Source: Eledone cirrhosa
Taxonomy: Eukaryota
Direction of reading: 5' to 3'
DNA length: 64,000 nucleotides
Assembly (NCBI GenBank): GCA_964016885.1
Contig: OZ024743.1
Coordinates: 153,202,001 to 153,266,000, forward strand
Below, piece after piece: positions 637 through 16,809 of the stretch. The position numbers and the translations under genes were made by a program. Within the stretch, counting starts at the first letter, position 1, and each line of letters starts with the position of its first letter. The notes beneath the pieces are model-generated. The model ran no database searches. It worked only from the letters and a program-made list of their open reading frames with translations, and was not told the origin of the DNA.

Positions 637-1112
637 AGTCTGTTTATATATTTATTTATATTTTCAGCAAACAGAGGTGATAAAGCTGACAGAGCATTCT
701 AGTAATAATCAGGAACTGATTATACAGAGCAGTTGCCGGTCAAGCAAAAATTGAAAATTGGAATTGGTGCTCTGAAATATATATACATTCATATATATAT
801 CGCTATTTCAGAAAACCAATTCCAATTTTCAATTTCTGCTTGACGCCCAACCGCTCTGTATAATCAGTTCCTGATTATTACTAGAATTGTATAAGAATCA
901 AACATTCATGATTTTCAGCCAACAGGTGGAGTACTTAGCTTTGATAAGTACCAAAAAGTACGAAACAGAGCTCTGTCAGCTTTATCTCCCCTGTTTGTTG
1001 AAAATTTAAAGTAAGTGAGACTGTCACTACTCTAAAACAATAGCATAAGGTCTTCGAAATGCTTTTAATTAAGCATACAGTGTATTGCAAAATACACTAT
1101 ATATACATTCAT
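637..1112 (+). mobile_element. Non-autonomous HHR-bearing retrozyme/PLE-like element, family A (~320-nt unit with inverted 5' partial copy)
   Basis: 661-790 is inverted relative to 800-1005. The motif atatacattcatata recurs at 781 and 1101. Homologous to 15786-16940, flanked by (TA)n, and contains an HHR. Confidence 0.8.
937..981 (+). ncRNA. Type I hammerhead ribozyme, U3-A8 core variant
   Basis: AGCT-TTGATAA-GTAC caaaaa GTAC-GAAAC-agagctct-GTC|AGCT. Stems I, II and III all pair. Predicted cleavage after 977. Confidence 0.85.
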
Positions 1113-1164
1113 ATATATATATATATATATTAATAAATGGAAACTATATTAATAAAACCATAAT

Positions 1165-1211
1165 TATTTTATTATATATATTTCAAGGGCGCGCTTTCAT
1201 CAGATAAAATA
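1165..1211 (-). ncRNA. Minimal type I hammerhead ribozyme in the PLE pLTR
   Basis: Minus strand reads TATTTTAT-CTGATGA-AAG cgcgcc CTT-GAAA-T atat A-TA|ATAAAATA. 8-bp stem I and palindromic loop 3. Confidence 0.88.
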
Positions 1212-2682
1212 CAAGATTTGTTTTATAAATATTGACATAACCGTGGAAAAACAACTTCGACGGTTGAAAGATCACTGGATAGTGGAACAAATTTTTTATT
1301 GAGGGTAATTCAAAGTTCTGTGTGATTATGCAAATGAATGTCCGAAAGATTGAAAAAACATCCGTTTATTTAAATTATACTGTTGGAAGAAGAGAGAGAA
1401 AAAAGAGAGAGAAAAGCGAGAAAGCAAAATGAGAGAAAAAAAGAGAGAAAAAAGAAAGAGGGAAAAGAATATTATTATATGTAGAGTTATAGTGGAGAAA
1501 TAAAGTGAAGAAAGAAAGAGCGAAGAAATAAGCTTATTAAAGGATGAGTTTGTATATCGTAAATACGTCATATGTTCATGTTAGATATTTATGTTACGTA
1601 TATTTACTTATAATTGTTAAATTTTACTATAGTAAGTATATATAAAGTTAGATATATAGGAAAAATAAAGAAAAAAAAAAGATATATTAAAACAAAGATA
1701 TATTAAAAAAAAGATATATTAAAACATATTAAGATATATTAAAATATATCTACATATATTAAAATATATTACAAATGGAGCATAGATATAAAGATAGATA
1801 TATGAGAGTATAATGGGTATATCATGTTATAGATGTTAAATTATTTAAATTAAATTAAATTAAATTAATTGAGTCTATAAAATAACTTATATATTTAATG
1901 TTTTACATTGGAAAAATATTGAAAATCCGAGTTTTGTTTATTTATTAATTATTATGAGATAAGTTTGACAATGATATGTTTAAAGATATATTTCGCCATA
2001 GTTTGTTACTGGTTGTAACTGTAATATTAAATAATTACAAAAATTAGAAAAAGTTACTAAAAAATTACAAAAAATTACAAAAAATTACAAAAAATTACAA
2101 AAAATTAGATAATTAAAAGTATAAAACCATTTAAAAATTCAGACTATAACAATTAAGACTCTAAAAAGACTTTCAAGAGATTTAAAAAAAAAAATCTAAA
2201 AAAAGACTCCGAAGATACTCGAAAACCTTTTAAAAACATTTAAAAACGTTTAAAAATTAAACCATAAAATTATTCAGGAATTATAATTAAAACCTAAAAT
2301 CATTCACAAATATAAAGAAATATTAAGAAATATTTGAAAATACTTAAAATATTTTAAAATATTTAGAAATGTTTAAAATATTATAAAAAATATAAAAAAT
2401 TAGGTGACCCCCTAAACATTTTTTTTGGGGAAATAAATAGTTTTTATTTTTTATTTTAAGTAATCTTTCTAAAAAGATTATGAGATATTTTGAAAGTAAG
2501 AAAATAAAGATAAAAATAAAGATATTTAAGAAGTAAAATATTAAAAAGTAAAGATTTAAGAAGTAAATTATATATATTTTTAAGAAGTAAAAGATATTAG
2601 AATTAGAATTACATTAAATTTAAATATAAATTTAAAGATTTAGAATTTATGAACATATATGCATATAATTTAAGAAATGAGA

Positions 2683-13355: not shown

Positions 13356-15948
13356 GTATAATAAATAATGAAATTGATTTTTTGTATTTCCAATAATGAA
13401 GCAACAAACAACCCCTCCTCCCCCCCATCCCCCCAAAAAAGAAAAAAAGAAAAAAAGAAAGACAATTGGGACGGCATAAATTCAGCAGTTTTGTTTTTTA
13501 GTTCCAATCCCAACTAACACCATTAACTATTCTGGTTATAAGCTAGATAGATCCTTTACATTCCTCTAGATATAGCTGTTAAATCTCCCTCAAATCACAC
13601 ATTACTGGAGAAACCCATTAGATAATGTAGTACTGGATTCGTCACATTTAAAAATAAAAATGATAGGATGGTTAGTCATGGATGGAATGTCTTTGATGAT
13701 AAGTCTTTTTAATCAAAGCTGACCTGCAACTAAACATTAACAACAACGACAAAATTCCATAACTTGGAGATAAGAGATGATTGCCTATTGATTTGTTTTT
13801 TTACAAACAAATGATTTATCTGTTTCCACAAATAACAAGATCAGTTGTAGTTTCAATATGAAACTCTAAACCGTGTTATGAAGATCAATAACAGTTGTTA
13901 TATTGGTTGAGAAAATAAAAGAAATCCTTCAACTACCTCCCTTACCAGATCACCAGATCATAGTCTAAGAAGAGAGAAACAGCCAGTTTGATTGAATTTC
14001 TGCTGTGCTGGCAAAAACAAAAAGAAGTGAGAGAGAAGCACAAATAGACAGCCAGAATATTCTAAATTAAAATCTGTACATTAAGAATTAAAATGACCCG
14101 TTTTAGTCCTGAGTCTAAATTTGAGTAATGGAAGCAAATTAGACAAGGGATAACAACAACAATAAAATAAACTAAATTAAAACTGAAAGGTGAATGGCAA
14201 ATCTCAAATTTATCAATTTATGGAAAAGATTAAAGTGGTAATGCTATTTCTTTATTTCAATTTATATTTCTTTTAATTCCATTTCTTCACTATTTTTTCT
14301 TTATCTTTATAGACCTCTTGATATGATTGGAAGCAGACATGCCACCTGCTTGATTTAATCCATTGAGGGTTTTGTTACTCTAATAGGCTAAGATAGAGGG
14401 CCAGGAAATTTGATTCCTCCTGTCATCATTTGCTGCTAAAAGTAGCTTGCTAACATTTTTTGTATGTGATTAATGAGATTTCTATTAAGTCTCACAAGAA
14501 CAAGTAGCAGAGTTGATGAAATTAATAGAAAATTGTCAGCTTCTTATTTGGTCTGGTAACCTGAGAATTAACTTTTCAGGTTCATTTGTAAAGAGATTAT
14601 GTTAAGAGAAAAAGACAAAAGAAAGAAAAAAAGACAAGACCCCTTCCACTCACAGAGTTTATAGTATTTAATAAATCCTGTAAAAGATGTGAGTGGTGGA
14701 AATAGTGTAATGCATTCTAACAGGAAAAATAACAAACTTTCTAAAAAATAACAAGAAAAGAATTTCATGAAATATCACATGGCAGTAAACTCTTTATATT
14801 CTAAAAGCTTCATAAGGAAGTTGTCTTAAATCTATATTTGACCTGTGTTATTGGAAAGCCTTCTTGAAATGTCATTTAAAAACCAAAAGTAAAAAGAGGA
14901 AAAGAAAAAAAATCAATCTAATACTATGATGGTAGTGTAAAGTCAAAACCATTAACATATAAGCTTTCAAGGGTTGAAAGGTATGAGAGACATAATGTTT
15001 TATATTTAATTTCTCTCAAGCATTAAACCATTTTTGTTTAGGCTTTTACAACAGAGAAGTGTAGCAGATTTAATTAACCACAATATATTACTGGTGCTTA
15101 TTTTATTGAGACTGTGAAAGAAATGTCAAAACATCTATAATTCAAATATCTAAACTCAGATATGGGAAATACAGAACAAGATATTGGGAGATATATTTGT
15201 TTGTCTTTATATTACTCTGTTGTCCTCATATAATATACTATTCCCACAAATCATTCCTCTACAAAGTGCAGGACTTGGTAAAATATTTTATGGAAATCCA
15301 TAGGTTGCTCATGCATGCACGCCTTTTTCGCTGCACCACCAGTAATGTCCAAGGGAAAGGGCTGATATAGCTTGGTAGCAATATCCTCACAGACATTGAC
15401 ACCAGAATGTAAATTGCTGGAAAAAAAAATGATAAGGCATGCTGTCAAATGCTCTAACAATTCTGTTGATCACCTGCCCAGAACTGGCACTCTCTTATCG
15501 ACTCTGAAATGATCAAAACCAAATAAGGGAACTTATATTAACAATAATATAAGCAGATGGATGATAATATATATATATATATATTAAAACTGTTTAATGT
15601 CTATTTTCTACATAAAAAAAAATAACATTCGAACACCAACCATATGTGAAAAAACCCACAAACCCTCCATCTCAATTTTACTTTTGAAAAGCATAAGAAA
15701 TGTGAAACCAGTAAAGGAATCAAATAAATATTCTTAAAAAGACTCCAGTTACATTTTCGATTTATTTTCCTTATAAATATATAAATTAGGATTGGTGCTC
15801 TGAAATAGCGATGTAGACATGAATGTACGGATAGTATATTTGGCAATATACCGTATGTTTAATTAAAAAACATTTAGAAGACAATACGCTATCATTTTAA
15901 AGTAATGACTATGTCACTTACTTCTTTTCGGCGAAAGAAGGGAGAGAA

Positions 15949-15987
15949 GCTGACAGTCTGTTTCACGCTGGTTGGCATCATCAGAGC
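15949..15987 (-). ncRNA. Type I hammerhead (family A, canonical C3-G8 core)
   Basis: Minus strand reads GCT-CTGATGA-tgc caacca gcgt-GAAAC-agact-GTC|AGC. Confidence 0.75.
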
Positions 15988-16769
15988 CACATACTCCCCT
16001 GCTTTCGCTGAAAATTATAGAAGCTGTATTCTTATAGAATTCCAGTAATAATCAGGAGCTGATTATACAGAGCGATTGCCGGTCCAGCAAAAATTAGGTA
16101 TTAGGATTGGTGCTCTGAAATAGCGATGTATATATGAATGTATGTATAGTGTATTTGGCAATGTACCGTATGTTTAATTAAAAACATTTGGAAGACCATA
16201 CGCTATCATTTTTAGGGTACATAGTTGTTATTAGTGTCAAAGGCATCATGTGGAGATTCAAGAGTTAAAAAGATGTTCCGCTTGAAATAACACAATTACA
16301 GGCAGCACTGGTTGGAAGTGTAATAGGTATAAGTAAAAGCAAAAAGCACAGTGAAAAAAATCACAAGCAAAAAAACACAAGGAAAGAAGTTATAAGCAAG
16401 GACAATTGGTGTACAATGCAGGAGTCAATACAGTCAATAATACTTTTTTTCGGCGAATGATTAACACCACCCAACGTGAAACAGACTGTCAGCTTCTCCC
16501 CCTTCTTTCGCCGAAAAGAAATAAGTGACATAGTCACTACTTTAAAAATGATAGCGTATGGTCTTCTAATTGTTTTTAATTAAACATACGGTATATTGCC
16601 AACTATACTATAGATATATTTATGTATACATCGCTATTTCAGAGCACCAATGCTAATACCTAATTTTTGCTGGACCGGCAATCGCTCTGTATAATCAGCT
16701 CCTGAATATTACTGGAATTCTCTAAGAATCCAGCTTCTATAATTTTCGGCGAAAGCAGGGGAGTACGTG

Positions 16770-16809
16770 GCTCTGATGAACGCCAACCTGCGTGGAACAG
16801 ACTGTCAAC
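16770..16809 (+). ncRNA. Family A hammerhead copy with GAAA changed to GGAA
   Basis: GCT-CTGATGA-ACGC caacct GCGT-GGAAC-agact-GTC-aac. Confidence 0.65.

What the first reader, a model, noticed from the sequence alone, without database searches (positions are those of the whole stretch)
937..16809. Compensatory C3-G8 to U3-A8 switch in the hammerhead core within one family
Seen: the family A copy at 937-981 has core TTGATAA, while its homologues at 15949-15987 and 16770-16809 have CTGATGA. Stem II also changes entirely yet stays paired (GTAC/GTAC versus ACGC/GCGT). Unrelated elements at 5407-5444 and 5633-5679 use TTGAAAA. Established: positions 3 and 8 form a Watson-Crick pair in the active HHR, and standard CUGANGA searches miss U3-A8 variants. 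Inference: the co-variation indicates selection for cleavage and a substantial hidden class of U3-A8 ribozymes.
Basis: partly seen in the sequence, partly recalled or inferred. Interest (0 to 1): 0.8.

Follow-up and report, generated by a model that had tools for sequence, protein, structure and literature searches.

The report
Swapped core pair in retrotransposon hammerheads
A 320-base mobile repeat carries a hammerhead ribozyme motif whose core C-G pair changed to U-A once in its family tree; the U-A branch kept multiplying, so it likely still self-cleaves, but this variant is already described in other animals.

Summary
The motifs are real type I hammerheads. 937-981 has U3-A8. 15949-15987 and 16770-16809 have C3-G8, but both are decayed copies. 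All three belong to a ~320-bp tandem, ORF-less, retrozyme-like repeat (family A). One genome-wide pattern gives 1094 C3-G8, 929 U3-A8 and only 64 mismatched cores; the mismatches occur at about neutral decay rates. That covariation is a single event: U3-A8 copies form one side of a branch, support 95/89. The stem II change is not coupled to it. The better evidence for function is later: all three stems turned over with compensation in younger U3-A8 subfamilies (2590 more motifs, 99 of 100 listed U3-A8). The motifs at 5407 and 5633 belong to unrelated families of 15,193 and 947 copies. The second flanks a Hydra-type Penelope ORF and has C3-G8 relatives. U3-A8 was 7 of 46 motifs in a 1-Mb sample. 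Natural U3-A8 hammerheads are published (PMC3088659), including about 1,300 in Penelope elements (PMC4209133). Cleavage and expression were not tested. New member of a known kind.

The parts
796..1100 (+). Family A unit (~320-bp ORF-less repeat), U3-A8 subfamily; ends in (TA)n
937..981 (+). Type I hammerhead motif, U3-A8 core, G10.1-C11.1, loop 2 CAAAAA, palindromic stem III, GUC site at 975-977; helix I extends over 915-1001
655..779 (-). Inverted partial family A copy with most of the hammerhead deleted
   Evidence: L001 hits
15828..16157 (-). Family A unit, C3-G8 (ACGC) subfamily
15949..15987 (-). C3-G8 hammerhead motif, decayed: one base lost at A9/10.1
16458..16611 (+). Partial family A unit in direct tandem with the next copy
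16600..16930 (+). Family A unit, C3-G8 (ACGC) subfamily
16770..16809 (+). C3-G8 hammerhead motif, decayed: A13G and a stem I mismatch
5266..5460 (-). Family B 3' end with minimal U3-A8 hammerhead motif at 5407-5444 (stem III CCGG, GUA site)
5481..5713 (-). Family C pLTR piece with U3-A8 hammerhead motif at 5633-5679
5742..5868 (+). Inverted family C copy; hammerhead motif carries A9C
15664..15763 (+). Diverged family B relative (78%), also TTGAAAA

Best explanation
Family A is a ~320-bp ORF-less tandem repeat with one hammerhead motif per unit, likely a non-LTR retrozyme that self-cleaves and is likely copied by Penelope-element enzymes, and its source lineage changed the core pair from C3-G8 to U3-A8 once. 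Read-through transcripts of tandem units would pair two palindromic stems III into a double hammerhead, cut after GUC and release unit-length RNA for circularisation and reverse transcription (inferred). Selection would act on the source RNA only; inserted copies decay at neutral rates. The U3-A8 branch went on to replace stems I, II and III with compensation and now includes near-identical tandem arrays. Families B and C are unrelated elements with the same core variant; C is the pLTR hammerhead of a Hydra-type Penelope element.
For: Unit and layout: 30 direct tandem spacings of 303-323 bp between family A motifs; every circular monomer folds below its shuffled mean; homology among the loci examined stops at the unit. 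Dimer: the monomer MFE buries U3-G5 in a rod, while two copies cofold into the double hammerhead with both cores and C17 unpaired, -73.3 against 2 x -31.3 kcal/mol. Structure: 93.6% of cells paired, 14 of 30 pairs with two-sided changes, 0 of 500 shuffles as high, slid controls at most 47% (20 hand-picked copies, related). Counts: 1094/929/41/23. Tree without hammerhead columns: 1 change, 95/89 (65 of the copies held). The switch branch has 11 shared changes in 268 columns and includes both 3 and 8; chance 0.0015, post hoc, two copies. After the switch: stem II GTAC/GTAC, GCAC/GTGC, GCAT/ATGC, GCTT/AAGC; stem III CAGAG/CTCTG, CAAG/CTTG, CATG/CATG; stem I AGCT/AGCT, GGCC/GGCT. Decay: U3C 6 of 929 and A8G 5 of 929 against flank rates 0.76% and 1.3%; C3U 18 and G8A 35 of 1094 against roughly 1-3% and 3-4% (backgrounds read by eye; rates). 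Family C: two direct copies flank an RT then EN reading frame in L316 with YRDD, CxCX5C, CxxC-E and N-CxH motifs. U3-A8 cores are reported active in vitro (PMC3088659).
Against: No cleavage, expression or circular RNA data. The switch in family A is one event. The motif scores below Rfam's gathering threshold. A quick tree that kept gappy and chimeric copies needed 3 changes. No Penelope element sharing family A's ends was identified. Pfam and PDB gave no RT or GIY-YIG hit for the family C frame; the Atlas gave RT-containing eukaryotic clusters at 0.95. Naiad Penelope elements proliferate without canonical hammerheads (PMC8557442), so cleavage need not be required for mobility. Root position is inferred from diversity, not from an outgroup.
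Confidence: 0.78

Rival explanations
1. The U3-A8 core is a dead or irrelevant motif: two common transitions fixed by chance in one source copy and hitchhiked, while selection keeps only a rod-like RNA fold.
For: One event. C>T and G>A are the commonest changes in the flanks. The monomer MFE is a rod. Hammerheads may merely parasitise Penelope elements (PMC8557442).
Against: U4, G5, A6, A9, GAAA and UC stay fixed, and U3-A8 stays paired, across a further ~16-18% divergence (L195 array) while all stems change with compensation. No mismatched subfamily amplified. A second lineage shows the same paired contrast.
Confidence: 0.07
2. Family A is not an independent retrozyme but the pLTR end of a longer autonomous Penelope element whose body was not sampled; the hammerhead biology is the same.
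For: Inverted 5'-truncated copies and (TA)n ends are Penelope hallmarks (PMC8557442). Retrozymes are related to pLTRs (bioRxiv 10.64898/2026.07.22.740005).
Against: Units follow each other directly at ~320 bp. In 10 reference loci shared sequence ends at the unit, unlike family C, which extends over 1 kb upstream.
Confidence: 0.1
3. Family A spreads as satellite DNA by unequal exchange, with no RNA step.
For: Tandem arrays of near-identical units.
Against: Copies are dispersed on many contigs as one- to few-unit insertions with inverted truncated ends. DNA-level spread would not maintain an RNA fold.
Confidence: 0.05

Closest known systems
U3-A8 minimal hammerheads of Cercyon Penelope-like elements, Schistosoma mansoni (Cervera and De la Pena 2014, PMC4209133; read parts 1-2 of 4, and 3 passages from supplement file 2; file 1 not searchable)
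   Same: U3-A8 instead of C3-G8 in type I hammerheads of Penelope-associated repeats, missed by the first descriptor, about 1,300 hits. The supplement aligns S. mansoni UUGAAAA with a near-identical S. japonicum CUGAAGA motif, which is also a switch between close relatives.
   Different: Here the switch sits in a short ORF-less tandem unit with a long helix I and a CAAAAA-type loop 2, can be placed on one branch of a subfamily ladder, and the copy number is about ten times higher.
Natural core variants of hammerheads (Perreault et al. 2011, PMC3088659; passages and section 8 read)
   Same: C3-G8 covaries to U3-A8 in several natural examples, described as active in vitro; palindromic stem III of repeat-type hammerheads.
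   Different: Called rare there; here about 15% of motifs in one genome (7 of 46, 95% CI 6-29%, arrays not independent).
Non-LTR retrozymes of corals, mussels and axolotl (Cervera and De la Pena 2020, PMC7229834; read parts 2-3 of 6)
   Same: 150-450-bp tandem repeats, GC under 50%, one type I hammerhead per unit, self-paired monomer, dimer-dependent cleavage.
   Different: Circular RNA not shown here. The parts read do not mention a U3-A8 core. Copies show Penelope-type inverted ends.
Hydra-clade Penelope-like elements (Craig et al. 2021, PMC8557442; passages and section 11 read)
   Same: Family C: RT then C-terminal EN, CxCX5C linker, CxxC and CxH around E and N, (TA)n ends, hammerhead in the repeats.
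   Different: Repeat-to-repeat distance 5.3 kb against under 3 kb; U3-A8 core; clade placement by motifs only.
Rfam Hammerhead_HH9 (RF02275)
   Same: Helix I UAC bulge and CAAAAA loop 2 align.
   Different: 24.7 bits against a threshold of 52; C3-G8 family A copies score no higher (19.4 for L360), so U3-A8 is not the reason for the miss.

Membership tests
Type I hammerhead ribozyme | Core (C/U)UGAN(G/A)A, GAAA, NUH with a paired 3-8 | tested here: met
   937-981, 5407-5444, 5633-5679; not met by the two decayed C3-G8 copies in the window, met by their subfamily
Type I hammerhead ribozyme | Three helices around the core, supported by covariation | tested here: met
   (stems I, II); stem III variants; families B and C too uniform to test
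Type I hammerhead ribozyme | Site-specific self-cleavage | not testable with these tools
   needs in vitro assay
Rfam Hammerhead_HH9 | Gathering score 52 bits | tested here: not met
   24.7 bits
Non-LTR retrozyme (family A) | 150-450-bp tandem units, each with a type I hammerhead | tested here: met
   30 spacings of 303-323 bp; 316-bp arrays
Non-LTR retrozyme (family A) | No coding capacity, no longer body | tested here: met
   10 reference loci against 30 each; not a full census
Non-LTR retrozyme (family A) | Highly self-paired monomer | tested here: met
   30 of 30 below the shuffled mean, most by several SD, a few marginal
Non-LTR retrozyme (family A) | Expressed as linear and circular unit-length RNA | not testable with these tools
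   no RNA holder listed
Non-LTR retrozyme (family A) | Target-site duplication | not tested
   ends lie in (TA)n
Hydra-clade PLE (family C) | RT followed by C-terminal GIY-YIG-type EN between direct repeats with hammerheads | tested here: met
   L316, L321, L325; motifs read; no Pfam hit; Atlas RT clusters
Hydra-clade PLE (family C) | CxCX5C linker; CxxC and CxH around E and N | tested here: met
Hydra-clade PLE (family C) | Phylogenetic placement with reference Hydra RTs | not tested
   no reference set on hand
PLE or PLE-derived element (family B) | Coding body or defined unit upstream of the hammerhead | tested here: inconclusive
   inverted pairs and (TA)n ends, but no consistent ORF or tandem period

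The most novel reading that the evidence does not exclude
The subfamily ladder is a fossil record of an epistatic walk through a ribozyme active site. An A-U to G-C change at 10.1-11.1 came first and permitted the C3-G8 to U3-A8 swap; single-mismatch intermediates never amplified but were carried by intact partners in double hammerheads; the U3-A8 form then displaced C3-G8 as the active retrozyme lineage. All three U3-A8 lineages here have G10.1-C11.1, whereas most C3-G8 subfamilies of family A have A-U or U-U.
Probability: 0.15. Interest if true: 0.6.

Novelty: new member of a known kind. Interest (0 to 1): 0.3.

Why it matters
It shows that CUGANGA-only searches would skip about one hammerhead motif in seven in this genome, including a 15,000-copy family and the subfamilies of a retrozyme that look youngest. 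It also supplies a resolved natural series (ATAC C3-G8, GTAC C3-G8, GTAC U3-A8, GCTT U3-A8) on which context dependence of the 3-8 pair, and the still open question of what hammerheads do for Penelope elements and retrozymes, can be assayed. The variant itself would not surprise a specialist.

Tried and rejected
Whole-window Rfam scan listed only microsatellite-driven miRNA matches in the 150 of 232 rows shown. No RNA holder listed; the three runs are contigs of unknown kind from one sample and say nothing on expression. Earlier scan findings: none. A search for a C3-G8 subfamily sharing the exact 3' side of family B or C gave 9 hits against 3 control; L305 and L309 look like rearranged single copies. 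C3-G8 relatives of C came instead from scanning held loci (downstream flanks of L011, L062, L291 0 of 300 shuffles; L227 14 of 300; controls from A and B negative). The first alignment had one row on the wrong strand and was redone. The AU test left out one nested U3-A8 copy and its rejection is an artefact; with all 21 rows the group is already one side of a branch. The quick tree needed 3 changes because of long-branch chimeric copies and an unresolved basal pair. Rows dropped before trees: 41 of 193, 64 of 264, then subsampled to 116 and 65. Family B's body was not resolved. Pfam and PDB did not recognise the PLE frames. The census stayed at 1 Mb. Przybilski and Hammann 2007, Martick and Scott 2006 and Lunse et al. 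2017 are not held and were not read. Rejected: coupling of stem II to the 3-8 switch; selection on individual genomic copies; several independent switches within family A.
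Full report
Setting. The window is G000:C4:153202001-153266000 in a 3.0-Gb AT-rich genome, rich in microsatellites and in fragments of Penelope-type reading frames. The organism was not identified.

Observation. 937-981 is a complete type I hammerhead motif with U3-A8, G10.1-C11.1, a CAAAAA loop 2 and a long helix I with a UAC bulge; Rfam aligns it to Hammerhead_HH9 below threshold. The two C3-G8 homologues are damaged: 15949-15987 lacks a base at A9/10.1 and 16770-16809 has A13G and a stem I mismatch. 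Their subfamily is intact elsewhere. The three units are 74-76% identical between subfamilies.

What family A is. Searches with each subfamily gave 1955 and 3039 first-look candidates, 40 scored each. Shared sequence ends at a ~320-bp unit. Thirty direct tandem spacings of 303-323 bp were found, each unit with one motif and folding as a self-paired circle. Many insertions have an inverted truncated copy and end in (TA)n. This fits non-LTR retrozymes (PMC7229834) with Penelope-type integration (PMC8557442). A single motif folds as a rod that buries U3-G5; two copies cofold into the double hammerhead with both cores open.

Do U3 and A8 travel together? With one pattern, the genome has 1094 C3-G8, 929 U3-A8, 41 C3-A8 and 23 U3-G8, controls 0; phi is 0.94. 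The 64 mismatched copies are scattered over all subfamily backgrounds. Read by eye, 6 and 5 come from U3-A8 backgrounds and 35 and 18 from C3-G8 ones. These rates are within about twofold of the flank rates for the same substitutions. Inserted copies therefore decay about neutrally, and no mismatched subfamily amplified.

How many events? With hammerhead columns removed, 70 U3-A8 and 54 C3-G8 copies split on one branch (152 of 193 copies). A careful tree of 65 copies needs one change, support 95/89, in 94% of bootstrap trees. A quick tree with gappy copies needed three. The subfamilies form a ladder by stem II: ACGC, ACAC, TCAC/TTAC, ATAC, GTAC (all C3-G8), then U3-A8. The window compares the two far ends. 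GTAC/GTAC arose before the switch, through a compensatory A-U to G-C change at 10.1-11.1, so stem II is not coupled to the 3-8 change. The two earliest-branching U3-A8 copies share 11 changes in 268 columns against the GTAC C3-G8 majority, and both core positions are among them (chance 0.0015, post hoc). C3-G8 as the ancestral state is inferred from its greater diversity and from the hammerhead consensus, not from an outgroup.

Evidence for selection. On 20 chosen copies the structure has 93.6% paired cells and 14 of 30 pairs with two-sided changes, above all shuffles and slid controls; relatedness inflates this. More telling, a pattern for other stem III sequences found 2590 further motifs, 99 of the first 100 U3-A8. 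They have new stems I, II and III, all paired, and occur in 316-bp arrays with identical motifs. One such array (L195) is 82% identical to the window's subfamily and nests inside the U3-A8 clade. The fold and the paired core were thus kept through long evolution after the switch. That cleavage is the selected function is inference.

The other two motifs. Family B (5407) has 15,193 copies, 100 of 100 listed U3-A8; its body is unresolved. Family C (5633) has 947 copies, 100 of 100 listed U3-A8. In L316 two direct copies 5.3 kb apart flank RT and EN frames with the Hydra-clade motifs. Three loci carry C3-G8 motifs whose downstream flanks are homologous to C (0 of 300 shuffles), a second contrast independent of family A, direction unknown.

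How common? In 100 evenly spaced 10-kb stretches a descriptor found 46 motifs: 37 C3-G8 (15 loci), 7 U3-A8 (5 loci), 2 U3-G8, against 0.67 in shuffles. Seven per Mb extrapolates to about 21,000 (8,000-43,000), close to the summed pattern counts of about 19,000-20,000. Among 12 clusters seen in two or more held loci, ten are C3-G8 by majority (family C was excluded by the stem III filter).

Literature. Perreault et al. 2011 report natural C3-G8 to U3-A8 covariation and cite in vitro activity (PMC3088659). Cervera and De la Pena 2014 report it in Cercyon Penelope elements, with about 1,300 hits from a dedicated descriptor (PMC4209133); their supplement shows a close S. mansoni U3-A8 and S. japonicum C3-G8 pair (one supplement file could not be searched). 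Searches found no paper on U3-A8 in a non-LTR retrozyme or on tracing the switch within a family, but the library is partial, three key papers were not held, and the preprint's supplements are closed. Also seen: PMC2837043 and PMC2920678 (passages), PMC6765202 (passages), bioRxiv 10.64898/2026.07.22.740005 (part 1 and passages).

Verdict. A real and well-resolved instance of a known variant in known kinds of element. Interest 0.3.

Noticed in passing
window 1165-1211 (-): C3-G8 minimal hammerhead motif (stem I tattttat/ataaaata, palindromic tatata stem III) next to the family A copy; similar motifs recur in other loci.
   Followed up: partly
window 24900-24973 (+): CTGATGA...GAAA candidate about 1 kb downstream of the Penelope-type frames at 22208-23931; possibly its decayed pLTR hammerhead.
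   Followed up: no
window 2683-3830 (-), 7639-8563 (-), 18685-19486 (-), 19958-21053 (+), 22208-23931 (+), 48015-48659 (-), 61196-62466 (-): Many broken Penelope-type RT/EN frames; the first six cross-match by tblastn and several show a CxCX5C-like linker; Pfam misses all but one weak RVT_1 hit.
   Followed up: partly
window 26187-28431 (+): Broken LINE-type element with RVT_1 and PHD domains; related frames in L312, L314, L317, L318.
   Followed up: no
window 30814-31254 (-): Reading frame that resembles a mariner-type transposase (recalled; Pfam gave only a weak HTH hit).
   Followed up: no
window 3885-4080, 12309-12487, 13264-13357, 35746-35903, 39930-40125, 43736-43925, 51058-51338: A ~190-bp repeat with at least seven copies in the window, 80-97% identical.
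   Followed up: no
L251:6600-9800 (-), L256: A second retrozyme-like family: 310-bp tandem array, 11 identical C3-G8 motifs with palindromic CGCG stem III.
   Followed up: no
family A C3-G8 subfamilies (rows, columns 45/58): Most have A-U or U-U at 10.1-11.1 instead of the usual G-C, yet amplified to hundreds of copies.
   Followed up: partly
family B, genome-wide: 15,193 near-identical U3-A8 motifs, mostly in inverted pairs 70-130 bp apart; no ORF or tandem period found. The element is unexplained.
   Followed up: partly
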